The notes under the pieces: generated by a model
What the model was told of the DNA's origin: nothing
Database searches by the model: none
What the model saw: only the letters and a program-made list of their open reading frames with translations
Translations under genes and position numbers: made by a program
IMG/VR virus record: IMGVR_UViG_3300011444_000143
Coordinates: 1-25,147 of that record
Strand: one strand, 5' to 3'
DNA: 25,147 bases
Origin: a virus
Lineage: Duplodnaviria; Caudoviricetes
In this document: positions 1-15,750 of the stretch, in pieces
How the letters are laid out: the number at the start of each line of letters is the position of its first letter
Position numbering within the stretch: the first letter of the stretch is position 1

Positions 1-240
1 GAGAAGCCGAGCGAAGACGGCGGCGATCAGCAAATCATGCAGACGATCGCCAACGGCGTGATCGTCGGGACAAACGTGCCCTACGCCAGCGTCCACAACA
101 ACGGCAACGCCAAACGCGGGATTCCCAAGCGGCAGTTTTTGCCCAAGGAAGCTCCGACGGTCTGGTTGCAGAGGTGGGCGGCGGTGGCGAATCAGGCTTT
201 ACTGGCGGCGGCTCGAATGGCTTTCCAGGTGAGGGCATGA
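1..240 (+). CDS. Phage virion morphogenesis protein (Mu gpG-like), 5'-truncated by the window edge
   Basis: Frame is open from base 1. Motifs VIVGTNVPYASVHN.G and IPKRQFL are typical of the family. Stop overlaps the next ATG (ATGA 237-240). Confidence 0.8.
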   Translation, partial: EKPSEDGGDQQIMQTIANGVIVGTNVPYASVHNNGNAKRGIPKRQFLPKEAPTVWLQRWAAVANQALLAAARMAFQVRA

Positions 241-800
241 AAGCCGCTGAAAAAAACCTTTTGATCGCGGTTCGCAATCGCTTGCGACTACCTGTTGCCG
301 TCGGCGGTGGAGGATTCTCGGAGAACGAATGCCAAGTCGAATACGATGCAATGGTCGCCCCCGCAACGTCGTCGGATCGCTATGTCGTCGTAGTGCCAAA
401 CGGATGGCAGCCGGGGCCGTACCACGGAAAACAAGGCGATAAGAACGACCTCCTTTATTCCGTTGACGTGACGGTAGTGAGGCGAGCGACCAGCACTCCC
501 AGGGATCGGACGCGAGAAATCGCCCTGACTAATTTCGGATCGCTGGCCGACGAAATGGATTTGATTTTTCAGGCCATCGATTGGAAATATGAAGTGACTA
601 CGGCGGCGGAAGTTTTGATTGCAGCACAACCTGGACTGCCGGCCGTTGTGGGCTTCATGCACCCGCTTGTGTTCGCCGGGATGGACCCAAAGCCGCGGCC
701 CTATATGGCTTCCGGGTTTGGCGGAGCCGAAGGCGTGATCGCCGGAATATCACGAACGATTCATTTTGCAAACGCCAGAAGGATGACGGTGAAGACATGA
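237..800 (+). CDS. Putative tail completion/terminator-like structural protein
   Basis: ATGA-coupled at both ends (start MKAAEKNLL, 187 aa). Lies between the gpG-like gene and the tube gene. Function is inferred from position only. Confidence 0.5.
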   Translation: MKAAEKNLLIAVRNRLRLPVAVGGGGFSENECQVEYDAMVAPATSSDRYVVVVPNGWQPGPYHGKQGDKNDLLYSVDVTVVRRATSTPRDRTREIALTNFGSLADEMDLIFQAIDWKYEVTTAAEVLIAAQPGLPAVVGFMHPLVFAGMDPKPRPYMASGFGGAEGVIAGISRTIHFANARRMTVKT

Positions 801-1219
801 GTGACCAACTTATTATCCCAAGCGACCGCACCAACAAGCAGCCCGTCGCGTGCATTTGCCGCAACCCGGAGTGCTTGGAAAATAGCAACGATCCGCACTT
901 CGCGTTTGTTACCGACAAGACACCGATCGAGTGCCCGAAGTGCGGCGCAAATCAGTCGCCGATGGTCGGCTTGCTGTCGCTTGTGCATTTCCTCTATCGC
1001 GAGAAAAAGGGCCCGATTGTCGGCTACGGCGGCCTGCGTTACGCCCTGGCGTGCAGCTCGACGCGAGCCTATTTGGCGACGAACTCAAATCAAGAGGCGG
1101 CTACCGGCGACTTCGCGTCGGTCAATTGCCCCGGTTGCCTGAAAAATGCGATCGACAAAAAACTTGTTCCCATCACCGGCTGGGCACTTCAGCAGCCGAC
1201 TTTTGACGAGAAAGTGTAG
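797..1219 (+). CDS. Hypothetical Zn-finger protein
   Basis: 140 aa with CxCRNPEC, CPKC and CPGC motifs; ATGA-coupled to the upstream gene. Confidence 0.7.
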   Translation: MSDQLIIPSDRTNKQPVACICRNPECLENSNDPHFAFVTDKTPIECPKCGANQSPMVGLLSLVHFLYREKKGPIVGYGGLRYALACSSTRAYLATNSNQEAATGDFASVNCPGCLKNAIDKKLVPITGWALQQPTFDEKV

Positions 1220-1225
1220 GCTCAC

Positions 1226-1702
1226 ATGGCCTTTCTTGCTGGCCGATATACCGCGACGTGGAATAGCTTGGCCCTCGGTCAAACTGCCGATGGGTTCCGG
1301 CTTAGTCACTCGTTTTTCAAACGGCTGATCACCGGCGATGCCTTCGCTCAAGCCCCTCAGGACGGCATCTATCAAGGTGCTGAAGTGTTCATTGCAGGGC
1401 GGCTGATCGCTTACGACACGGCCGCGATGCCTACGATCATGTGGCCATATGCGGCCACGTTTCTCGACATGGGCGTGATCGGACGCACGGATGTTGGCGG
1501 CTCGGTGGCAAAGTCGCTGATCTTGACGGCCGTGGCCGGTACGCCATCCGCGGCGGCCCCGGCGTCGCTCACGTTGCCGCTATCCATTCTGGCGGAAGGT
1601 TTCCCCGTCGAATTGCTGTTCGCACCTGATCTACGGGAAGTGCCGTTACGGCAGCGGGTGTACCCCAACGGAACTACCGGCGTATTCGGAACGCAGACGT
1701 GA
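1226..1702 (+). CDS. Putative major tail (tube) protein
   Basis: 158 aa, beta-rich, with an N-terminal LGQTADG motif resembling the LG.T.dG of tail tube proteins; position fits. Confidence 0.6.
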   Translation: MAFLAGRYTATWNSLALGQTADGFRLSHSFFKRLITGDAFAQAPQDGIYQGAEVFIAGRLIAYDTAAMPTIMWPYAATFLDMGVIGRTDVGGSVAKSLILTAVAGTPSAAAPASLTLPLSILAEGFPVELLFAPDLREVPLRQRVYPNGTTGVFGTQT

Positions 1703-1711
1703 TAACTACGC

Positions 1712-3001
1712 ATGGCCGAACAACTAGAAGTCATATTCGTCGATCAGGCCGGGGCTTCCACAACCCCACGACAGAGCCCGTCTGCGCCGGATGACAGCGG
1801 CAATTCATCGCCAAGCCGCACTCCCGGTCCCGCTGATCGCGTCGTTGGCCCGAAGAAGCCTGACAGTCAGGGTATTGGGAGAGATTTAGAAAACGCCGCT
1901 CAGAGGATCGCAAATGCTCTGGGGATTGGCGGGTTAACTGGAACCGCTCTGGAACTTCGGAAGGCGTTTAGCCGGCTGTATGAGTCGGTGACGTCGGCGG
2001 AGAAGGCGGTGGAGTCAAAGCGGCGGGCGGATAGCGGCAATGGCAGCACTGGCGTTAGCGGTGAAGTGAAGGGACCGGTTAAGCCTGTTCCAAAGCCAGG
2101 AGATATTGAAGCCCCGCCAGTCATTAGGAAGCCGCTCAATCCGTCAGTGCCCAACGTCGGCACATTCGAGCGACAGGCGGCGAAGGGTGATATTGCGGGA
2201 CCGGCAGTGTCGCAGGCTGTGCGAGGGCCAACGCCGAACATTGGTTGGTTTGAAAGGATGACTGCGGCGCGGGGTGGCGCTGCGGCTCCGCCTGTGAGTG
2301 GTTCGGGAATACCGCCAGCGGTTCCAGGTGTGCCAGTTGCTCCGCCCGTGGTGGGGCCGATGGCCGGTGCGGGGACTGCGGCGAGCGGGATGGCGAGATT
2401 GGCGGCGGCGGCCGGGCCAGCGGCGTTGGCTGTGGCAGGCATTGCGGGAGCCATCGCGGCGGGCGTTGTCGTCATCAAAAAGACATTCGCAGCCATCGAC
2501 AAAGAAACGGAGCGATTGTCGGGATATTCAGGGGCGTTGGCTGGCGCTCAAGCACGGGCTGAGATTCGCCAGTTGGGCGCGGATATGCGGCGGGCTCAGC
2601 GGATTGGTCCGCAGTTGGCGAGGGCGAGAGATTTCACGTCGTCAGTCGAGACGAAAATTGCGGATTTGAAGACGAGCATGTTGAAGTTTGGACTCGATGT
2701 ATCAGAGGGGATCGGCGGTATCCCGAAAGCACTCGGCGATGCGAATTCAAAAATAGAGGACGCATTCAAAATTCTGGTTGCCGAAGCGACGGGAACCAAA
2801 GAAGAGGCGAAGGAAGTGCGAAAGCAACTCGAAAAAATGCGTGCCGAAGCGGAGCGGGCTCGCAAGAAGGCAGAGGAAAAAGACGCGCTTATGAATTTCG
2901 GCGACGACTTCATGGATGCGTTTCTCGGTCAATTCACAGGGGGCATGTCGTCGCAAGATCGCCGCAGGGCAGCAAGGGACGCCGCTATGGTGAGAAAATG
3001 A
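1712..3001 (+). CDS. Putative short tape-measure-like protein
   Basis: 429 aa, Ala/Gly-rich, with a hydrophobic AGPAALAVAGIAGAIAAGVVVI segment and a charged helical C-terminal half; follows the tube gene. Confidence 0.5.
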   Translation: MAEQLEVIFVDQAGASTTPRQSPSAPDDSGNSSPSRTPGPADRVVGPKKPDSQGIGRDLENAAQRIANALGIGGLTGTALELRKAFSRLYESVTSAEKAVESKRRADSGNGSTGVSGEVKGPVKPVPKPGDIEAPPVIRKPLNPSVPNVGTFERQAAKGDIAGPAVSQAVRGPTPNIGWFERMTAARGGAAAPPVSGSGIPPAVPGVPVAPPVVGPMAGAGTAASGMARLAAAAGPAALAVAGIAGAIAAGVVVIKKTFAAIDKETERLSGYSGALAGAQARAEIRQLGADMRRAQRIGPQLARARDFTSSVETKIADLKTSMLKFGLDVSEGIGGIPKALGDANSKIEDAFKILVAEATGTKEEAKEVRKQLEKMRAEAERARKKAEEKDALMNFGDDFMDAFLGQFTGGMSSQDRRRAARDAAMVRK

Positions 3002-3009
3002 GCGACAGT

Positions 3010-3513
3010 CTAATTGTTGCCAGGCGGCGGAGTCTTACTGTCGATGGATGCAGCGGCATTCGCGATATTAAAAAGCACGATCATTGCCTCAAGTGCAACG
3101 CGAGCCCACAACAGGCCGATCACGGTCGATATGATTGTCACGACAAACATGAACGCACGCATAAAGAGCAATCGAACCTCAAGGCTAACCGTCGAGTCCT
3201 TTATCTCGCGCAACGGCATTGCGCCGTAGCCCGCAGAGCCTCTGATTTCTCCGAATCCCTTTTGCGGCATGGACGCTATGATGCCGACGGTTGCGGCGGT
3301 AATCCACAGGCCGGCAATCACCACCACCAAAACCCATGTGACCTTCACGATAATCGGGGTGACGTACTTCTCAAATTTGAAGTCGAAAATATCGAAAAGC
3401 GATGTAGCCATCGTCATGCCGCCGCGATTAACGTGACGCCGGTACGACGATGGCTGGCCAGGGGAAACGACAACAAGCGGTGGCGGCACTGGAGGGATGT
3501 TGGAACTGCTCAT
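3010..3513 (-). CDS. DUF4282-like membrane protein (antisense insert)
   Basis: FDFKFEKYVTPIIVKVTWVL...RVALEAMIVLFNIA with two hydrophobic segments matches the DUF4282 pattern as recalled. It fills the gap between two + strand genes. Confidence 0.75.
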   Translation of the reverse strand: MSSSNIPPVPPPLVVVSPGQPSSYRRHVNRGGMTMATSLFDIFDFKFEKYVTPIIVKVTWVLVVVIAGLWITAATVGIIASMPQKGFGEIRGSAGYGAMPLREIKDSTVSLEVRLLFMRAFMFVVTIISTVIGLLWARVALEAMIVLFNIANAAASIDSKTPPPGNN

Positions 3514-3563
3514 ATCTTCGCATCCTGCGCCATCTCTCCCGGAAAAGCAACTGAGGTGGCGGC

Positions 3564-5276
3564 ATGAGCTTCGCGCATCTCGCTACAATCGGCACGCTTT
3601 CCTACAACGGATATGCCTTCGACGGGGCCAGCGGCGTCAAAGTAAACGTCGAATTCGTGAAGGATGACGCCGAGCGAACCATCGTCTATAGCCAACACAC
3701 AATTGAAGTTCATACCTTCGTTTCGGACTCAGCCAGCACTGACGGACAACTCGAAAACATCCGCGCCAGACTGAACCATCCAGGACAAGCGTTCATCTTT
3801 GTAAATAAGGGGTTTGGGGATGATTTGATCGTCAATGCCAATGGTGGCGCGGGCGTGCGGGACGTGAAATGGGGTCCGATGCCGGAAATGCTCTACTGGG
3901 AGCCAGTTGGGTCGGCCGGTGCTTGCGAGGTGATTTGGAAAGTAGTTGTCTGCGTCCCATGCTGTGGGAACGGTTTAAGCGACCGCACAGCCGGCGTGAT
4001 GGCTTTCAATTTTGGCGTCGATATTGCGATTGACATTCGCGGCCTGTCAACGCGGACAATCGACGGCTATATCGAAATCGCTCAAACGCGAGGGGCAGGA
4101 AAAACCGTTCCCGACTGCGCCGACAATTACCGCTTTATGATCCAGCCGGATTTGCCGAATGGATTCCAGCGCGAACAGCACTGGGCAATTTCACCCAGCA
4201 AAAGCCGAGTCACGTTCACAATCACCGACCGCCAGCTACCTACCAAAAACCCCTACCCGCAACTCGTTACCAACATTCGCGGCAACCACCGCACGGCATG
4301 GAGGAGGGGACCGCAGGCGGCTTTTTTACTCAACTCGATCTCACTGGACATCGAGCTTGCATTAGGTGCTCCGCAGGCGTTGGCCTATAAGTTATTCGGG
4401 GGACTCATTAAAGCCCGCGTCGATTATGCGGCCCGCCAAGGGTTAATTGCATTTTTGGATGAAGTAGCGGCAGACGAAGAAATTTTCGGGTTAGGCTACT
4501 CATTTGGCTGTAGCTATCGGCTGCTAACTGACATCGGATCAGTACTGGCACAAAGCACCGGCGATGTGGCAAATGCAAATCCGAGCATTTCGGCAAACAC
4601 TTACGACTTCTCGCGAACCGGACAATGGCAGCCGGTTGGGACCGATTGGAGATTGTGGCGGGGCTCGCTGTCTCACGTCTCTGGGGAGAGGGGTTTGGCG
4701 GGCCTGACCGTCCCCGCGCAGAACGACGTAATCGTTGATCTCTGTGACGCTGGTTTAACTGTTTCAACTAGCAGCACGCAACAGCCAAACATTATTCCGG
4801 TTCAGGTCACGGTTCCGACAGTCCGAAACATAAAACCACCGCCACGACAAAGCTATCTGTCCTACCGCCAGCGAGCCGTCATTCGTCACCAAAAGTACGT
4901 CGCCCGCCAAAAGCCGATGCAAGCCGGCCAAAAGCCGAAAGCTGTTGGCGACATGATGGCCCCGGATCGAGCCGACTTCAGCATCGGAGCCGCTTCAAGT
5001 AGCATCACTCCATTCCCGGACGTGTTGCAAGAGTCGGGAGCTGGGAGTTTTCAAGTCGCCTACATCGGCTCAGCCGAGCGAGTGGGCTACGAAATCCCGC
5101 GGCCAAACATTCAAAGCGTCGGCGGGCAAACTCCCGTCGAAGTCGAGTCAATTTTTGACATGGAACAAACCGGCGTCACGTTCGGCGTGCCTGTGTTCCG
5201 TGCCAATTGGTACATCGTTTACGAACTACCTGGGGCTCCCGGCCAAGCGTCGGGACCGCCAAAACTTCAAGCCTAA
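3564..5276 (+). CDS. Hypothetical virion (tail-associated) protein
   Basis: 570 aa ORF with GAGGTG RBS, beta-rich, inside the structural module; no family recognised. Confidence 0.65.
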   Translation: MSFAHLATIGTLSYNGYAFDGASGVKVNVEFVKDDAERTIVYSQHTIEVHTFVSDSASTDGQLENIRARLNHPGQAFIFVNKGFGDDLIVNANGGAGVRDVKWGPMPEMLYWEPVGSAGACEVIWKVVVCVPCCGNGLSDRTAGVMAFNFGVDIAIDIRGLSTRTIDGYIEIAQTRGAGKTVPDCADNYRFMIQPDLPNGFQREQHWAISPSKSRVTFTITDRQLPTKNPYPQLVTNIRGNHRTAWRRGPQAAFLLNSISLDIELALGAPQALAYKLFGGLIKARVDYAARQGLIAFLDEVAADEEIFGLGYSFGCSYRLLTDIGSVLAQSTGDVANANPSISANTYDFSRTGQWQPVGTDWRLWRGSLSHVSGERGLAGLTVPAQNDVIVDLCDAGLTVSTSSTQQPNIIPVQVTVPTVRNIKPPPRQSYLSYRQRAVIRHQKYVARQKPMQAGQKPKAVGDMMAPDRADFSIGAASSSITPFPDVLQESGAGSFQVAYIGSAERVGYEIPRPNIQSVGGQTPVEVESIFDMEQTGVTFGVPVFRANWYIVYELPGAPGQASGPPKLQA

Positions 5277-5281
5277 TCACC

Positions 5282-5713
5282 ATGCCAACCAACCCCATCC
5301 AACTCGAAGACGGCCTTCTCCGCTTCACGATCCTGAACCGCGAAACCGGCGAATCGGTAAATCACTCGCTCGACGTGCTACTCCTGCGGCTCACCTGCCA
5401 GGAGTGCGAAGCCCTGCACAATCTCCAAGTCGAGAACGGCAGCTACGTCGTCACCGCCGCTTACCTGGCGGACCTGACCAGCCGCATCGCGGGCCTGGGC
5501 GTCCCCGAATGCACCGCCTCGATCGCCTATCAACTCTGGGGTGCGAGCGTTCGCGAGATTGACGCTTTGCAAAAAAAAACGAACGAGACGCAGAGCTTGC
5601 CTACTGGTTCGGAATCCAACCAGCAGCCGAGCGGCGAACCATCGGCGGAATCGACCTCACCGCCACCAATCAACCCACCATCAATCAGCGACTCGGAATC
5701 TGGACAAACCTAG
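5282..5713 (+). CDS. Tail assembly chaperone (gpG-like, unshifted product, 143 aa)
   Basis: ATG 5 nt after the previous stop. Contains LQKK encoded by an A9 run (5571-5579), followed by a low-complexity S/P/T/E tail typical of unshifted chaperones. Confidence 0.7.
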   Translation: MPTNPIQLEDGLLRFTILNRETGESVNHSLDVLLLRLTCQECEALHNLQVENGSYVVTAAYLADLTSRIAGLGVPECTASIAYQLWGASVREIDALQKKTNETQSLPTGSESNQQPSGEPSAESTSPPPINPPSISDSESGQT

Positions 5714-5895: not shown

Positions 5896-7818
5896 ATGCA
5901 ATTCCTTGGATTCAATTTTGGTTCGACGAAGAAGAAGCCGCTTGTCACCGATGCGCCGGCAACCAGCGGCTATGAGCCGATCAAATACACGCAATGGTTC
6001 ATGCGTCCGCGCGACCTGCCGCCGTTTTCGTTTAGCACGATCTTGGCGATGATGCTCGACCCGACGATCCGCCTCGGACTGGCCATGCGATCTGCTCCGC
6101 TGTTCGGCTGTGAGTTTTCCTATCAAAAAGAGGGCAGTGACGAATGGACTCCGGGCATCAAGGCCAACAACCCGCTAGTGGCCGCTTTCGTGCTGCGTCA
6201 ATTTAAAAAGATTTGGCACGACCTGGATGCTCTTGTGCCGGCACAGCAATGGGGCTGGGCCGCGGCGGAAGTGCAATTGTGCTTTACCGAGCACCGAGCG
6301 ATTGAAGTTGATCGGCTGATTCCCCGCCACAGCAACGACACTCGCGCGTTAGTCCGCGACGGCGAAGTCTGCGGTGTGCGATTTCTGCGGATCAAGCACA
6401 GCGAGAAGGGTTACGTTGACCTGCCGTTCCCGAAGGCGATTTTCCACAGTTATGCTCCTGACCCTGGCTGTGAGTATGGCAACTCAGTGCTGAACGGTGC
6501 TTATTCACCGTGGGGCGACAAATGGCTCAACGGCGGGGCTCTCGACACTCGCCGGCTGTTCATGCACAAGGATGCGTACGGCGGCGGCGACATGGGGTAT
6601 CCGCCAGGGACGACGAACATTGCCGGCAAGGGAGCGGTCCCGAATCGTGACATCGCCCGCGAGATTGTGGAGCAATATCAGGCGGGGTCAGTCACGACGC
6701 GGCCGAGCCAACTTGACCCGACAACCGGCAAGGAATTATGGCCGTTCACTCGTGCCACCGTGCCGAGCAATCCGCAGCACATTTTGCAGTACCCGAAAGA
6801 CTTGGACACCGAAGAACTTCGCGGAATGGAGATCCCCGACGAAGTATTTATGCCGAGCGAGGCCGGCACGACGGGGTATAGCGGCAAGTCGATCCCGATG
6901 CAGGGTTTTTATACTGGGCTCGATCGGTGGATGATTCGCATGGTGGGCGATGTTGACCGCCAGGTGGTGCGACCGCTTGTGGCACATCGTTTCGGGCCAG
7001 GGCAGGTTTATGAGGTGACGACGAAGCCGCTCGGCAAGCAGGCGATGGAGAATCAGGGTGACGGGAAAGCGAATGCCGGATCGCAGCCGAGCGTATTTGC
7101 TGGCGGATGGGGGCGGGATGGTGATGATGATGGGCAGCGGGGTGAAGGCGGGAGCGGTGGCGGGCAACAGCCGCCACGGATTGGCCAGCGGATGAGTTTG
7201 GACCCGGTTGCTGCGGTCGGCGAGGGCGTGCTATCGGCAGCGGAGCTGGTGAAGGCGGCGAAGCATGTGATCGACGGCCGCGTGACTCGCCTGTCAACCG
7301 ACGCTCATCAATACAGCTCGACGCAATTCAACCTGACCGGCGATTTAGCTTTTCAGGTGCGGGAGCTTGGCTACCGTATTGCGTTCGATGACCTTGCGGA
7401 AGACGGCCGCGAAGAGAATCCGCATATCACGGTTAAATTTGGTTTGCACACAAACGACGCGGAAGAAGTTCGCACCGCCATGGCTGACAAGTCACCCGTC
7501 GCCGTGCAATTCGGGCCAGCGTCCTATTTCGCCAGCGACGAATATGACGTCGTGAAAATCGACGTGATCGGCAAGGGACTGCGAGAACTAAACGCGGCAA
7601 TCGCGGAAGCCCTGCCAAACACCGAGACGCATCCCGAGTACACGCCGCATGTCACGATCGCTTATGTGAAACCGGGACTGGGCGAGAAATACGCCGCCAC
7701 GTTGAACGACATGGAAGGGCGAACGGCTGTTTTCGACAGGCTGACGTTCTCGGACAATAACCGCGTTCACACGTCGATTCCGTTAACCGCCAAGGCGATT
7801 CGATTTTCGGCCGAATGA
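5896..7818 (+). CDS. Portal protein (DUF935/Mu gp29-like) fused to a C-terminal 2H phosphoesterase (Acb1-like) domain
   Basis: Portal motifs MLDPTIRLGLAMRS, AQQWGWAAAEV and PKAIFHSY..EYGNSVLNGAYSPW..K, then a Gly-rich linker, then two HxT motifs: PHITVKFG (His510) and PHVTIAY (His585). MuF follows. Confidence 0.85.
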   Translation: MQFLGFNFGSTKKKPLVTDAPATSGYEPIKYTQWFMRPRDLPPFSFSTILAMMLDPTIRLGLAMRSAPLFGCEFSYQKEGSDEWTPGIKANNPLVAAFVLRQFKKIWHDLDALVPAQQWGWAAAEVQLCFTEHRAIEVDRLIPRHSNDTRALVRDGEVCGVRFLRIKHSEKGYVDLPFPKAIFHSYAPDPGCEYGNSVLNGAYSPWGDKWLNGGALDTRRLFMHKDAYGGGDMGYPPGTTNIAGKGAVPNRDIAREIVEQYQAGSVTTRPSQLDPTTGKELWPFTRATVPSNPQHILQYPKDLDTEELRGMEIPDEVFMPSEAGTTGYSGKSIPMQGFYTGLDRWMIRMVGDVDRQVVRPLVAHRFGPGQVYEVTTKPLGKQAMENQGDGKANAGSQPSVFAGGWGRDGDDDGQRGEGGSGGGQQPPRIGQRMSLDPVAAVGEGVLSAAELVKAAKHVIDGRVTRLSTDAHQYSSTQFNLTGDLAFQVRELGYRIAFDDLAEDGREENPHITVKFGLHTNDAEEVRTAMADKSPVAVQFGPASYFASDEYDVVKIDVIGKGLRELNAAIAEALPNTETHPEYTPHVTIAYVKPGLGEKYAATLNDMEGRTAVFDRLTFSDNNRVHTSIPLTAKAIRFSAE

Positions 7819-7819
7819 C

Positions 7820-8839
7820 ATGCCCGAAGCCAAAAACAAAGCGACGAATCTAATCATCGGTACCGGTCTGATCACCGCCGAAACGATTGCGTCCGAACTC
7901 CGCGCCCGCCTCACCCGCTACCTCGGCAGCCAGTGGCGTTATCTCTCTCATCAAGAGTTAATGGCCCGCGCCCGCACCATCCTGTCGGAATTTGAGCCGA
8001 TCCTCGCAGAAAATTTCGCAGCGACGGACCTCGCCGCCTTCCTCGCCGGCTTCGACGACGTTGCCCGCAAACTCCCCGGCTTTGCCATCGACGCTTTCGG
8101 CAGTCGAATGGGCGGGCCACCGCGACCACCTGGCGGAATCATCCTGCCGAGCTGGTATGAAGGAGACGACGAGCCGATTGTCGAATTCCCGCTGATCCAA
8201 AAGGCGGCGGAGAAGCTGGCACAGAAAAACATCCTCACGCGGTACGAATTTGACCGGGCCAGCCAAGCGGCGAAGAATCAGGCGTTCACCGTGGCGGGTG
8301 ATATGACTCGCGATACGCTCGAAACGATTCGGGACGTGTTGAGTGAGACGGTGGATGAGGGGGCGAGTTTGGAAGGGTTTCGGCGGAACTTGGGGGAGCG
8401 AATCGAGAAGTCATTCATCGGGCCGGGGCACCTGGAAACTGTTTTTAGGACGGGAGTGCAGGGGGCGTTCGCCGAAGGGCACGACACGCTGGCCGATCAT
8501 CCCATCGTCGATGAGCTATTCCCGTACATGGAGATTTTGCCGATCCACGATGCGAGGGCACGGCCAACGCACCAATCGCTCGCTCACCTTGGATTGAGCA
8601 GCACTGGAATCTACAGGCGAGATGACAAAGCGTTTTGGCAGATTTTTCGGCCGCCGATCGAGTGGAATTGTCGATGCGGAGTGAACTTGCTGACGATTGA
8701 AGCAGCGGCCCGCGCGGGCGTGGCGGAGGCGAGCGAATGGCTCAGGACGGGCTATCGTCCTCCAATGATTAGTCGCTTGCCGTTTATTCCTTGGCGGCCA
8801 GACCCGAAGTTCGTTGGCGTTGGGAGGGTTGCGGCGTGA
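7820..8839 (+). CDS. Head morphogenesis protein MuF (Mu gpF/SPP1 gp7 family)
   Basis: AFTVAG, HLETVFRTGVQGAFAEG, DARARPTH and PPIEWNCRC motifs; immediately after the portal. Confidence 0.9.
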   Translation: MPEAKNKATNLIIGTGLITAETIASELRARLTRYLGSQWRYLSHQELMARARTILSEFEPILAENFAATDLAAFLAGFDDVARKLPGFAIDAFGSRMGGPPRPPGGIILPSWYEGDDEPIVEFPLIQKAAEKLAQKNILTRYEFDRASQAAKNQAFTVAGDMTRDTLETIRDVLSETVDEGASLEGFRRNLGERIEKSFIGPGHLETVFRTGVQGAFAEGHDTLADHPIVDELFPYMEILPIHDARARPTHQSLAHLGLSSTGIYRRDDKAFWQIFRPPIEWNCRCGVNLLTIEAAARAGVAEASEWLRTGYRPPMISRLPFIPWRPDPKFVGVGRVAA

Positions 8840-9063: not shown

Positions 9064-10503
9064 ATGGTCGATCGCTACGTAACTGTCGCCGGCAAAAAAG
9101 CCCTTCACCCGCTGCCAATCAAGCAGCTCTGTGACGATTACGGCTTGCCTGACAAGTTCTGGGGCCGAGCCAATTCCATTTCCTGCCCTGTCGGCATGGA
9201 ACCGGGCTCCGCGTGGTTCATCGTCAGCCGCGTGGATGGTGACGCGATCGCTGCCAACACGCTTTGCGATATTGTCTGGACCGAAGTGACGGGCGTGGGC
9301 TCTGCGGCCCCCGTTGTCACTACTTTCAAAAACTACGTCCCCCACCGATTCATCCTCATCGGCGCCGACGGCGACTCCAAAGCCCCCTACTTGGCGGAAT
9401 TCCGCGACAAGCGGCAAATTCTCCGCATGTCAGCCGTCAACAGAGAGTACAACGTCCGCCGCACGACCCGCCAGGGTGACAGTGCCACGACGGACCTCTA
9501 TTACACCGACTCGCGAAACAGCGGGAGCGACTGGACCTGGCAGACGATGTTCGAAGATTTGTGGGGGAATCTGCCGTCGGCGATTCGCGGCACGGCTCCT
9601 ACGCTTGCGACCAGCGGCTATGTGCCGGCGAATGAGCCAGAGAACTTTCGGTTTCACGGCAACGCGATGGATGCGATTGGCGAGATGCTGGAAGCCTCGC
9701 AGAACGTGCTTTGTTACGACCCCATCTTGGAAGTGTTCACTGTTCAACGAATCGGGTCCACGCAAACCGGGCTCACCACGGCGAAGAATGTGCTCGCCAA
9801 TGCCGGCCGCAGGCTGGTCGACGATACCCCGCGGCAAGACTTAAACCTGTCGTCGGCCCCTGAAAAAATCCGCTTCTACTTCCCCAAGCGGCTGGAACTT
9901 GAGTCGTCGCTATTTGACACAGCCGCCAACGCTCATCTAGTCGCGCCGTACTACACCGTTGACAAAACTACCGGATTAACCGGAGTCCAAGCCGGCACGA
10001 TCCTCCCCTACCGCACGAACTTCATCGCCGAGATCGACGCTGACGGCTCTACGGTCAACAACACCAGCACGCTCGATACCCTGGCGGATGAACTAAAAAC
10101 GAAGATCGTTGACCGAATCAACCTGGGGAGCGAGAGTGGGATTGTGATTTATGGCGGGCCAGTGACGACGATCAAGCCAGGTTGTGAAGTGCATGAAATG
10201 GTGTGGCGGGATTACGGGGACGATTGGGGGATGGTGACGGAGTTAAAACGCGATCCAAAATTGGGGAAGGTGAAGCAGCCGCCGCAGATTCAGTTGCAGC
10301 CGTTTACCGGGGAAATCTTGGTGAAGAATACGACAGGTGGTGACTTCTCCGCCGGCACCAACACTTTTGACATTATGAAGGACCAAACGAACACGAGCGG
10401 GCAGACGATTTCCGCGACCAACCTGACCACCGTAAAGGCTGGCAAGCGAGGGGCAGCGGCGTTGATAAACGGAATCGTGTTCGCCTCTCCGCAGGAAAAC
10501 TAA
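9064..10503 (+). CDS. Putative tail hub/baseplate-like virion protein
   Basis: 479 aa, Thr-rich and beta-rich. The EFRDKRQIL...WTWQTMFEDLW...AMDAIGEML pattern loosely resembles tail hub proteins; mostly a positional inference. Confidence 0.5.
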   Translation: MVDRYVTVAGKKALHPLPIKQLCDDYGLPDKFWGRANSISCPVGMEPGSAWFIVSRVDGDAIAANTLCDIVWTEVTGVGSAAPVVTTFKNYVPHRFILIGADGDSKAPYLAEFRDKRQILRMSAVNREYNVRRTTRQGDSATTDLYYTDSRNSGSDWTWQTMFEDLWGNLPSAIRGTAPTLATSGYVPANEPENFRFHGNAMDAIGEMLEASQNVLCYDPILEVFTVQRIGSTQTGLTTAKNVLANAGRRLVDDTPRQDLNLSSAPEKIRFYFPKRLELESSLFDTAANAHLVAPYYTVDKTTGLTGVQAGTILPYRTNFIAEIDADGSTVNNTSTLDTLADELKTKIVDRINLGSESGIVIYGGPVTTIKPGCEVHEMVWRDYGDDWGMVTELKRDPKLGKVKQPPQIQLQPFTGEILVKNTTGGDFSAGTNTFDIMKDQTNTSGQTISATNLTTVKAGKRGAAALINGIVFASPQEN

Positions 10504-11103
10504 ATGACCCGCGCCCGCCTAATCCTCTTGATCCGCGGTTTGACGCTGCTCTGCGTCGGCGCTCTGCTGTGCGGATCGGGCTGGCTCTATGCGGGATTGG
10601 CTTCGGTGTTGGTGGGGCTGATGATGCCGGTGTTTGCGGCGGCGGTAGTTAATTGCGGATCGTGCCAGACAGGACAGGTTGCCGGTTCCGTTCAGGTGGA
10701 CATTTCCGGCTCAGGTAACATAGACGGTTCTTACGTGCTCACGAAAGAATCCATAGAGGACAATGATTGCGCTGCTGTGTCTAGCTTGAGCGGCTGCTTG
10801 TGGGGATTAACTGACCAGTCTGGAGTTTGCGGAGCGAATCTGGTGTCCTTTTCTTTCTTCTTGTATGAGTTTCTTGGCAACCGAAGAATTGGCGTCAATG
10901 TTTGTTGCAGCTTCGACGCAGGCTTTACTTGGGTTTTGAAAAACGATTGGCAAGAGACATACAATCTAACTTCCGATCCAGAGCCAGATTGCACCGCGTT
11001 TAGCGCTTACGACATCGCGCACCTGGGCTCTGGATCGGGTGGTAACTGTTCCGCTGGCTGCGTAACAAACGACCCCGGAACGTGCCTCGTAACCTCATTG
11101 TGA
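10504..11103 (+). CDS. Cys-rich protein with hydrophobic N-terminus
   Basis: 199 aa abutting the previous stop (TAAATG); about 45 aa hydrophobic leader and 13 Cys. Confidence 0.7.
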   Translation: MTRARLILLIRGLTLLCVGALLCGSGWLYAGLASVLVGLMMPVFAAAVVNCGSCQTGQVAGSVQVDISGSGNIDGSYVLTKESIEDNDCAAVSSLSGCLWGLTDQSGVCGANLVSFSFFLYEFLGNRRIGVNVCCSFDAGFTWVLKNDWQETYNLTSDPEPDCTAFSAYDIAHLGSGSGGNCSAGCVTNDPGTCLVTSL

Positions 11104-14937: not shown

Positions 14938-15750
14938 GTGCCGGTAACTATTAAAAATCGCTGGTCAGGTGAAACGATCGCGACGGTAGAAGACACCGAC
15001 GATCTTCGCGAAGCCGTGATTCGGCTTGTGAAGCAGGGCGTAAGCCTGAACGACGCGGATTTGTATCGTGCCAGCCTCGATGGTGCCAGCCTCGTTGGTG
15101 CCAGACTCGTTGGTGCCAGCCTCGATCGTGCCAGCCTCGTTGGTGCCAGACTCGATCGTGCCAGACTCGATGGTGCCAGCCTCGATCGTGCCAGACTCGA
15201 TGGTGCCAGCCTCGATGGTGCCAGCCTCGTTGGTGCCAGCCTCGATGGTGCCAGCCTCGATGGTGCCAGCCTAGTTGGTGCCAGACTCGATGGTGCCAGC
15301 CTCGTTGGTGCCAGACTCGATCGTGCCAGACTCGATGGTGCCAGCCTCGTTGGTGCCAGACTCGATGGTGCCAGCCTCGTTGGTGCCATCCTCGATAGTG
15401 CCAGCCTCGTTCCGATTCGCAATGACATGTGGGCCGTGTTGACGATGGCTCCGCTGGAAGTGCCCGCGCTAATTGCGGCTCTCAATGAGGGTCGCGTTGA
15501 CGGATCGGCTTATGAGGGCGAGTGCGCGTGCTTGGTCGGGACGATTGCAAATGCGCGCAAGTGCAGTCACGACGCAATCGAAGGCCTTGAGCCCGACTCA
15601 TCGCGGCCGGCTGAATGCTTTTTCATGGGAATCAAAAAAGGCGACACGCCCGAAACGAATCAAGTCTCGAAGCTGGCCCGTGATTGGTCCTTGGAGTGGT
15701 ACGAGCGGATGCAAAAGGCGTTTGGGCCAGTGGAGGCGGCCGCAAGTTAA
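14938..15750 (+). CDS. Pentapeptide repeat protein with a non-repetitive C-terminal domain
   Basis: AAGGAG RBS plus GTG; IKNRWSGETI N-cap; 23 A[S/R]L[D/V][G/R] units; C-terminal GRVDGSAYEGECACLVGTIA domain. Confidence 0.92.
   Translation: MPVTIKNRWSGETIATVEDTDDLREAVIRLVKQGVSLNDADLYRASLDGASLVGARLVGASLDRASLVGARLDRARLDGASLDRARLDGASLDGASLVGASLDGASLDGASLVGARLDGASLVGARLDRARLDGASLVGARLDGASLVGAILDSASLVPIRNDMWAVLTMAPLEVPALIAALNEGRVDGSAYEGECACLVGTIANARKCSHDAIEGLEPDSSRPAECFFMGIKKGDTPETNQVSKLARDWSLEWYERMQKAFGPVEAAAS
15070..15414 (+). repeat. Coding tandem repeat, 23 x 15 nt GCCAG[C/A]CTCG[A/T]T[G/C]GT
   Basis: Read directly from the sequence; no spacers between units. Confidence 0.95.

What the first reader, a model, noticed from the sequence alone, without database searches (positions are those of the whole stretch)
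5896..7818. Portal protein carries an Acb1-like 2H phosphoesterase: candidate virion-packaged anti-CBASS enzyme
Seen: one uninterrupted 640-aa ORF with a DUF935-type portal (about aa 1-385), a Gly/Asp/Gln linker, and an approximately 170-aa domain with two intact HxT motifs (His510 PHITV, His585 PHVTIAY). Known: T4 Acb1 (gp57B) is a 2H phosphoesterase that degrades cyclic di/trinucleotide CBASS signals, and portals are dodecamers. Portal-Acb1 fusions are recalled from other portal families, so the concept may not be wholly new. Inference: about 12 enzyme copies per virion could act at DNA entry or during head assembly. An RNA 2',3'-cyclic phosphate repair role (LigT-like) is an alternative.
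Basis: partly seen in the sequence, partly recalled or inferred. Interest (0 to 1): 0.85.

Follow-up and report, generated by a model that had tools for sequence, protein, structure and literature searches.

The report
Phage portal with detachable 2H enzyme
This phage's DNA-entry gate (portal) protein ends in an intact two-histidine phosphoesterase domain, a fusion type already described in print; short repeated motifs on both sides of the domain suggest that the phage's head protease likely cuts it free, and the freed enzyme would likely destroy bacterial alarm nucleotides.

Summary
One 640-aa ORF joins a Mu-type portal (aa 1-385) to a 2H phosphoesterase (aa 468-635) with both HxT motifs intact; 25 of 119 other homologues share the fusion. 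The domain is not Acb1 proper. It scores below Pfam's Acb1 cut-off, has no conserved lid, and its predicted fold is no closer to Acb1 (Z 11.3) than to CPDase, YjcG or LigT (Z 14-16). It belongs to a large 2H subfamily of phage polyvalent and head proteins. Portal-2H fusions and their proposed anti-signal role were published in 2017 and 2022; I found no test of one. Here the 2H is one swappable cargo among many (topoisomerase IB, ART, DarB-like) on portals of likely Planctomycete phages. New here: an R-[FML]-[SAG] motif flanks the domain (R432, R465, R636) and sits at fixed places in the relatives' prohead-protease/scaffold protein. A second portal lineage uses Q-F-x-E in both proteins. Mu's portal tail is reported to be cut off by its protease. 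So the enzyme is likely released during head maturation and does not stay tethered. Substrate and site of action are untested. Interest 0.38.

The parts
5896..7050 (+). Mu-type portal core, aa 1-385
   Evidence: Pfam Portal_Mu 20.5 bits here, up to 46 bits in homologues; Atlas Portal_Mu 0.97; lies before MuF and in a conserved head-tail gene order in relatives
7051..7188 (+). Gly/Gln/Asp-rich linker, aa 386-431
   Evidence: sequence; variable among homologues
7189..7197 (+). motif R432-M-S, candidate prohead-protease site 1 (also present in cargo-free portals)
7198..7287 (+). conserved segment of about 30 aa, aa 435-464, function unexplained
   Evidence: BLAST hit in 58 of 119 homologues
7288..7296 (+). 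motif R465-L-S, candidate site 2; the closest relative P0003 has an insert of about 250 aa at this place
7297..7800 (+). 2H phosphoesterase domain, aa 468-635; H510/T512 and H585/T587
   Evidence: Pfam PF13563 44.8 bits; model pLDDT 94.2; 2H fold; H510, T512, H585, T587 each 99% conserved in 179 aligned sequences
7801..7809 (+). motif R636-F-S, candidate site 3; further cargo follows at this place in homologues
7820..8839 (+). MuF-type minor head protein gene, directly downstream
   Evidence: Pfam Phage_Mu_F E 3.8e-5, under cut-off; phrog_220 E 6.8e-28

Best explanation
The gene encodes a Mu-type portal with an intact 2H phosphoesterase as optional C-terminal cargo; the phage's prohead protease likely cuts the enzyme free at the R-[FML]-S motifs during head maturation, and the freed enzyme would likely hydrolyse cyclic or 2'-5' oligonucleotide immune signals of the host (CBASS, type III CRISPR or related). 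Steps: (1) shown: fusion, fold, catalytic residues, cargo swapping in relatives. (2) From knowledge of portals: 12 subunits per head, with the C-terminal end inside the shell (orientation recalled), so up to 12 copies are loaded. (3) Inferred, about 0.7: cuts near S434, S467 and S638 release a domain of about 171 aa; the exact bond is unknown. (4) Inferred, about 0.5: the freed domain stays in the head and is delivered with the DNA. (5) Inferred, about 0.6: the substrate is an immune-signal nucleotide.
For: Motif: R[FML]S occurs 103 times in the tails of 120 non-redundant portal homologues against 22.3 +/- 4.6 in shuffles (highest of 200: 35), but 13 times against 17.9 in the portal cores. A motif lies within 14 aa after the 2H domain in 31 of 48 portal fusions and in 6 of 115 other carriers of the same 2H. 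In the model the two flanking motifs lie outside the folded domain. Protease: the gene between terminase and head-decoration gene in relatives has conserved His, Ser and Asp (invariant in 8 of 8; nearly or fully invariant in 117). Its model (pLDDT 90.7) matches VZV protease (Z 9.6, rmsd 2.9, 114 aligned) and T4 gp21 (Z 8.7, rmsd 3.0, 116 aligned), with unrelated rows at Z 5.0 or less. In 116 homologues [RK][FML][SAG] sits at three fixed columns in 112, 95 and 114 sequences, the first right behind the protease domain. Covariation: in 8 of 8 loci with portals 45-53% identical to this one the scaffold has more R-type motifs; in 6 of 6 loci with portals 27-36% identical it has more Q-type motifs, and the portal tails mostly follow. 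Precedent: the last 124 residues of Mu portal gp29 are absent from the virion structure, which the authors attribute to protease I (PMC11915804, passage). Cargo that must act inside a cell: DarB-like methylase-helicase on portals of up to 2,952 aa, topoisomerase IB, ART, PBECR, LPD3, InPase. Substrate: nearest PDB sequences are PDE-9 (E 7.8e-5) and Acb1 (E 0.0019); W74 and F107 of T4 Acb1 align with F545 and H579; no RNA ligase found in 5 related records that carry the fusion; SMODS nucleotidyltransferases found in 11 of 151 genomes of the likely host phylum.
Against: No cleavage, packaging, delivery or enzyme activity is shown. The motif was picked after looking at alignments, and the counts are inflated by common ancestry; the covariation rests on two or three lineages. 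Of 14 pairs, 10 agree, 3 are ties and 1 disagrees, and three rows count a QFNL that lies inside the 2H domain. R[FML]S is also above chance in the protease domain itself (24 against 9.0). Some portal fusions lack the motif after the 2H (17 of 48), and L022 has none in the first 150 tail residues. The protease gene is not in this contig, and it has no Pfam, PHROG or PDB sequence hit; Foldseek's best E-value is 5e-3. The fold does not single out Acb1 (Z 11.3 against 14.1-15.6 for drCPDase, YjcG, archaeal 2'-5' ligase and 4qak). Two of the tested viral 2H groups cut none of 18 signals (Doherty 2025). CBASS is reported to fire late, on prohead proteases (abstracts), which fits action in the producer cell better than action at entry. 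Only about 7% of sampled host-phylum genomes had a SMODS hit.
Confidence: 0.4

Rival explanations
1. The enzyme destroys immune signals in the cell that makes the phage, late in infection, either on unassembled portal or after release and exit from the prohead. The fusion serves timing: it is made together with the protease and head proteins that trigger CBASS.
For: Prohead proteases activate CD-NTases late in infection (PMC12991175, abstract); CBASS escapers map to protease, capsid and tail-fibre genes (10.1101/2023.05.21.541620, abstract). Iyer 2022 raise the option that head-linked enzymes (there ARTs) counter immune processes aimed at the portal or terminase (passage). Cut fragments of scaffolds normally leave the prohead (recalled).
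Against: The same slot carries DarB-like antirestriction proteins, whose role is tied to incoming DNA. The subfamily is almost always part of long virion-type proteins: 7 of the best 150 hits are 320 aa or shorter, median 1,596 aa, whereas late expression alone would not need a fusion.
Confidence: 0.25
2. The 2H domain works on RNA: it heals 2',3'-cyclic phosphate ends after host ribonuclease attack (LigT/CPDase-like), or it is an Usb1-like RNase delivered to the host.
For: The fold search ranks drCPDase, YjcG, archaeal 2'-5' ligase and Usb1 (Z 13.8-15.6) above Acb1; Foldseek's top rows are Usb1 and CPDase. Iyer 2017 name an RNase role as one of two options. PBECR RNases occupy the same slot.
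Against: TIGR02258 gives 25.6 bits against a cut-off of 65.7. No RNA ligase among 20 window ORFs scanned, none found in 5 related records, only one of them complete (the PF09511 search had no positive control), no tRNA genes in the window. Iyer 2017 report that this class does not associate with RNA ligases.
Confidence: 0.17
3. The domain stays tethered to the portal inside the head, the motifs are not cut sites, and the enzyme never reaches a new host.
For: No direct evidence of cleavage; the motif could be a short binding motif shared by scaffold and portal tails.
Against: The motif sits right behind the protease domain and at cargo borders, and changes with the protease lineage; the Mu portal tail is missing from virions.
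Confidence: 0.13
4. The domain is a decaying passenger or the ORF is an assembly artefact.
For: Close relatives P0004 and P0007 (74% and 71% identical portal cores) lack it.
Against: Catalytic residues are 99% conserved in 179 sequences; 25 of 119 homologues have the fusion; a second assembly of the reads spans the junction.
Confidence: 0.05

Closest known systems
2H phosphoesterase domains fused to MuF or portal in phage polyvalent and head proteins (Iyer et al. 2017, PMC5512222; Iyer et al. 2022, PMC9503650)
   Same: Same architecture (portal plus 2H), same co-cargo set (ART, PBECR, LPD3, InPase, DarB-like), same proposed role against nucleotide signals, no linked RNA ligase.
   Different: In the passages read, release of domains is ascribed to built-in metallopeptidases; none is annotated here. 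Evidence here points to the prohead protease and a lineage-specific motif. Iyer 2017 does not contain the word Planctomyc-; topoisomerase occurs there only in a reference.
Acb1 (T4 gp57B; FBB1 Acb1, PDB 7T26/7T27; Pfam PF23474; Hobbs et al. 2022, PMC9117128)
   Same: 2H fold, HxT/HxT tetrad, aromatic at W74 (F545) and a ring residue at F107 (H579), Y-x-P-H-x-T-x-x-Y stretch.
   Different: 19% identity, below the Pfam cut-off, no conserved C-terminal lid (W147) or E141, about 20 aa longer core, fused to a portal; activity untested.
PDE-9 of Burkholderia phage BCSR5 (PDB 9Q2G/9Q2Y; Doherty et al. 2025, 10.1101/2025.08.21.671373)
   Same: Best PDB match by sequence profile (E 7.8e-5); shows that cGAMP cleavage tolerates loss of the lid.
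   Different: 14% identity in the structural alignments; its lid is N-terminal; the solved chain is 165 aa.
Phage Mu portal gp29 (gpH) and protease gpI
   Same: Same portal family and neighbouring MuF gene; the C-terminal tail beyond about residue 390 is missing from the Mu virion.
   Different: Mu's removed tail is 124 aa with no enzyme noted in the passage read; here the tail holds enzymes. The protease of this clade has no Mu-like_Pro hit.

Membership tests
Portal_Mu (PF06074) portal | Profile score above the Pfam cut-off | tested here: inconclusive
   20.5 bits against 23.9 for this protein; many homologues at about 50% identity pass, up to 46.2 bits
Portal_Mu (PF06074) portal | Position in a head module with terminase, protease, capsid, adaptor and MuF genes | tested here: met
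   MuF follows in the window; relatives show terminase, protease, decoration, capsid, adaptor upstream. The window itself starts in the neck gene.
Portal_Mu (PF06074) portal | Dodecameric ring in the virion | not testable with these tools
   no particle data; the portal part was not folded
2H phosphoesterase superfamily | Two HxT/S motifs | tested here: met
   H510-I-T512, H585-V-T587
2H phosphoesterase superfamily | 2H fold | tested here: met
   the top 21 VIA-align rows are 2H proteins, best Z 15.6, rmsd 3.8, 162 aligned
Acb1 (PF23474) | Profile score above cut-off | tested here: not met
   13.8 bits against 27; a few homologues pass, e.g. P0053 36.7 and P0087 29.3
Acb1 (PF23474) | Base-stacking aromatics Y12, W74, F107, W147 | tested here: inconclusive
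   W74 aligns with F545, F107 with H579; Y12 is not reliably aligned (no aromatic at the place by eye); W147 has no counterpart
Acb1 (PF23474) | C-terminal lid (145-152) and E141 | tested here: not met
   no conserved residue after L630 apart from G632 in 179 sequences
Acb1 (PF23474) | Cleaves 3'3'-cGAMP and cAAA; rescues phage on CBASS hosts | not testable with these tools
   needs assay
LigT / RNA 2',3'-cyclic phosphodiesterase (TIGR02258) | Profile score above cut-off | tested here: not met
   25.6 bits against 65.7; Pfam LigT_PEase 23.2 against 23.3
Phage RNA-repair 2H | Linked RNA ligase or tRNA genes | tested here: inconclusive
   none found in the window or in 5 related records, 4 of them incomplete
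Polyvalent/head-protein 2H of Iyer 2017 | Fused to portal, MuF or long polyvalent proteins | tested here: met
   131 of the best 150 hits are 600 aa or longer; carriers include Portal_Mu, HK97-type portal, Phage_portal_3, MuF, Mu-like_Pro and LPD38 proteins (61 of the 143 new hits were scanned)
Polyvalent/head-protein 2H of Iyer 2017 | Sequence membership in their published alignment | not tested
   their alignment files were not seen
Prohead protease, assemblin/T4 gp21 fold (gene of relatives) | Fold and conserved His/Ser/Asp | tested here: met
   Z 9.6 (1vzv) and 8.7 (5jbl); H, S-P and D conserved
Prohead protease, assemblin/T4 gp21 fold (gene of relatives) | Cuts scaffold and portal at the motif | not testable with these tools
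   inferred from motif placement only

The most novel reading that the evidence does not exclude
In this phage clade the portal tail is a protease-addressed loading dock: any cassette flanked by the lineage's cut motif (R-[FML]-[SAG] here, Q-F-x-E in a sister lineage) is built into the head at up to 12 copies, cut free and injected. The 2H cargo is a lidless immune-signal nuclease of a large untested subfamily, distinct from Acb1, that disarms cyclic-nucleotide immunity from the moment of DNA entry.
Probability: 0.25. Interest if true: 0.7.

Novelty: new member of a known kind. Interest (0 to 1): 0.38.

Why it matters
The idea that phages pre-load signal-destroying enzymes in the head has been in print since 2017, and I found no test of it (searches). 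This locus makes it testable. It gives a compact domain, predicted cut sites, a candidate protease with no database family, and natural relatives with and without the cargo. If release and delivery hold, the portal tail is a general route for loading proteins of up to about 2,500 aa, and a 2H subfamily of thousands of clusters (4,819 hits at E 0.001 or better, which include other 2H groups) gains a function. The fusion itself is common and not a discovery.

Tried and rejected
phmmer of the 2H domain alone against PDB: no hit at E 10. No annotated phage record holds the portal (tblastn), so no cultured phage was found to test; the 2H alone hit 114 records at under 40% identity. No RNA holder listed; this says nothing about expression. 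Sequence searches for the protease family found nothing in Pfam, PHROGs, NCBIfam or PDB; only folding identified it. The conserved 30-aa segment looks by eye like the N-terminus of MuF, but hhalign gives 3.6% probability: not supported. A tree of 74 2H domains was a quick tree only, with 6 of 71 inner branches well supported; it mixes the two portal lineages but does not force more than 2 changes, so repeated transfer is not shown. GC and GC3 of the 2H part (0.557, 0.659) are close to the portal's (0.585, 0.696): no sign of recent foreign origin. Hobbs 2022 tested 9 further acb1 genes; in the passages read and the 9 supplementary files searched there is no mention of portal fusions. I recall curated Acb1 entries with portal N-termini but could not confirm it (one search found no paper with Acb1 and DUF1073). 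Supplementary Table 2 of Doherty 2025 lists 13 multi-domain 2H PDEs and was not seen; it may include portal fusions. The protease was not found with the queries used in 7 of 20 handle searches (one of these, G009, was then recovered by fetching the region); pairs without a protease were left out of the covariation count. The metagenome scan with a tail-tube query gave one short locus. No complex prediction was run.

Full report
Observation. The N-terminal 385 aa are a Mu-type portal. The Pfam score here is under the cut-off (20.5 against 23.9), but homologues at about 50% identity pass it, the Atlas gives Portal_Mu at 0.97, and a MuF gene follows. The C-terminal domain is a 2H phosphoesterase by profile (E 1.7e-11) and by fold (model pLDDT 94.2). 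The fusion is real: 25 of 119 other homologues have it, and a second assembly of the probable source run spans the junction without differences.

Setting. The window is a whole 25-kb virus contig that begins in a neck gene, so terminase, protease and capsid genes are missing from it. It also holds an integrase, Erf, RecD2-like, SNF2 and methylase genes. Relatives keep the order terminase, protease/scaffold, decoration, capsid, adaptor, neck and tail genes, portal, MuF. Host hints point to Planctomycetes: 5 of 7 genome loci, the other two being short contigs in Acidobacteria and Bacteroidia bins, and the source names. The host is inferred.

The 2H is one cargo among many. Of 119 homologues, 44 are 520 aa or shorter and 75 are longer. 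A Pfam scan of 60 of the longer ones found 2H, topoisomerase IB, ART, LPD3, PBECR, InPase and DUF5661 behind the portal. Viral loci add DarB-like methylase-helicase portals of 2,935 and 2,952 aa and a Zeta-toxin domain. P0004 and P0007, with portal cores 74% and 71% identical, have no 2H; P0003 (86%) has about 250 extra residues before it. The same 2H subfamily is large (3,167 clusters at E 1e-10 or better) and nearly always part of long proteins (median 1,596 aa of the best 150). It also rides on HK97-type portals, Phage_portal_3, MuF and a Mu-like protease.

Is it Acb1? Not by membership tests. The Pfam Acb1 score is 13.8 against 27. Against T4 gp57B (fetched) identity is 19%; hhalign local gives 81.5%. 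The tetrad, W74 (F545) and F107 (H579) align, while E141 and the W147 lid have no conserved counterpart. VIA-align gives drCPDase Z 15.6 (rmsd 3.8, 162 aligned), YjcG 14.4 (2.8, 150), archaeal 2'-5' ligase 14.3 (3.1, 159), Acb1 11.3 (3.7, 135) and PDE-9 11.3 (3.7, 143). By sequence profile, however, PDE-9 and Acb1 are the two best PDB matches. Doherty 2025 (parts 1-3 of 5 read) show that viral 2H groups differ widely in substrate, that two groups cut nothing in their panel, and that the core and not the lid sets specificity. So 'works like Acb1' is plausible at about 0.6 for some immune signal; 'is Acb1' is not supported.

A likely release mechanism. The alignment of 2H domains showed R-F-S-like motifs at the domain end, and the protein has R432-M-S, R465-L-S and R636-F-S, the last two just outside the folded domain. 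I chose the motif after seeing this, then tested it. R[FML]S is 4.6-fold enriched in 120 portal tails and not in the cores. A motif follows the 2H in 31 of 48 portal fusions and 6 of 115 other carriers. The gene upstream of the head-decoration gene in relatives has no family hit, but folds like herpes assemblin and T4 gp21 and keeps His, Ser and Asp. Its scaffold part carries the same motif at three fixed columns in 112, 95 and 114 of 116 homologues, the first directly behind the protease domain. A second portal lineage, 27% identical in the portal yet 66% identical in the 2H (L033), uses Q-F-[SAEDN]-E at the same places in the portal tail and in its scaffold. Over 14 protease-portal pairs the motif type agrees in 10, ties in 3 and disagrees in 1. 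These pairs are related and amount to two or three lineages, so the P value there overstates the case. Zhou-type structural precedent: in the Mu virion structure the last 124 residues of portal gp29 are absent, attributed to protease I (PMC11915804, passages; the cited Grimaud 1996 paper was not read). Cargo-free portals here keep the first motif, as expected for a general trimming site. I put release at about 0.7.

Where it acts. If the portal tail faces the inside of the head (recalled), up to 12 freed copies could be packaged and injected, as Iyer 2022 propose; the DarB-like cargo in the same slot favours delivery. Against this, CBASS is reported to be triggered late by prohead proteases (abstracts), so action in the producer cell is a serious rival. 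SMODS domains were found in 11 of 151 genomes of the likely host phylum and in 1 of 5 bins that hold related portals. RNA repair is less likely, since no ligase or tRNA gene was found, but those records are mostly incomplete.

What is known. Iyer 2017 (PMC5512222, passages) describe 2H domains fused to MuF or portal and propose RNase or signal-degrading roles. Iyer 2022 (PMC9503650, passages) say such fusions suggest packaging and injection to counter SMODS and CRISPR signalling. Hobbs 2022 (passages and supplements searched) define Acb1. Other papers opened (PMC13728456, PMC3447690, 10.1101/2025.06.06.658234; passages) added nothing on the fusion. Searches for a test of a portal-2H fusion or for this cut motif found none in the listings; subscription papers are largely outside the library. 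The scan's own notes list 16 portal-Acb1 findings in at least 15 genomes, one of which also suggests protease release; these are unchecked AI notes and were seen after my analysis.

Verdict. It is a new member of a known kind. The added value is the predicted, lineage-specific cut motif and an unannotated protease family, which turn a published guess into concrete experiments. Interest 0.38; the boldest reading has probability 0.25 and would deserve 0.7.

Noticed in passing
L012:9938-18745, L025:9944-18802, L022, L027, L028: Portals of 2,350-2,950 aa; L012 and L025 carry a DarB-like methylase-helicase module, L027 SNF2 and helicase domains.
   Followed up: partly
P0017, P0025, P0029, P0030, P0031, P0037, P0043, P0059: Topoisomerase IB domains fused to the portal; topoisomerase is not discussed in Iyer 2017.
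   Followed up: no
L043-L050, L051:1853-3154 (-), P0275-P0392: A prohead protease/scaffold family with no Pfam, PHROG or NCBIfam model; assemblin/gp21 fold by prediction.
   Followed up: yes
L080/L082 (G015): The protease/scaffold protein is about 810 aa, with a long insert that holds several QHGE/QHAE-type motifs: cargo may also ride on the scaffold.
   Followed up: no
L085 with L077; L075: A third motif flavour, Q-[LM]-S, in scaffold and portal tail.
   Followed up: partly
L033:8678-12163: Portal, 2H and MuF in one 1,161-aa chain; MuF genes of L007 and L009 run to 2,305 and 1,875 aa or more.
   Followed up: partly
window 7198-7287: Conserved 30-aa segment between two motifs, duplicated in P0020 and placed after the 2H in P0035 and P0102; role unexplained.
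   Followed up: partly
window 3010-3513 (-): A DUF4282 membrane-protein gene lies inverted inside the tail module, after the tape-measure-like gene.
   Followed up: no
window 174-5713 and 9064-11103: Portal and MuF lie downstream of the tail genes and far from terminase; the order is conserved in relatives, and several of these genes have no Pfam or PHROG hit. No sheath gene was recognised.
   Followed up: partly
window 14938-15750: Pentapeptide-repeat protein gene among early genes.
   Followed up: no
L051:5152-7833 (-): Terminase large subunit interrupted by an intein-like LAGLIDADG insert.
   Followed up: no
L020:9917-13015: Portal frame ends at aa 391 and the tail continues in a separate ORF, unlike its near twin L017; a break or a sequencing error.
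   Followed up: no
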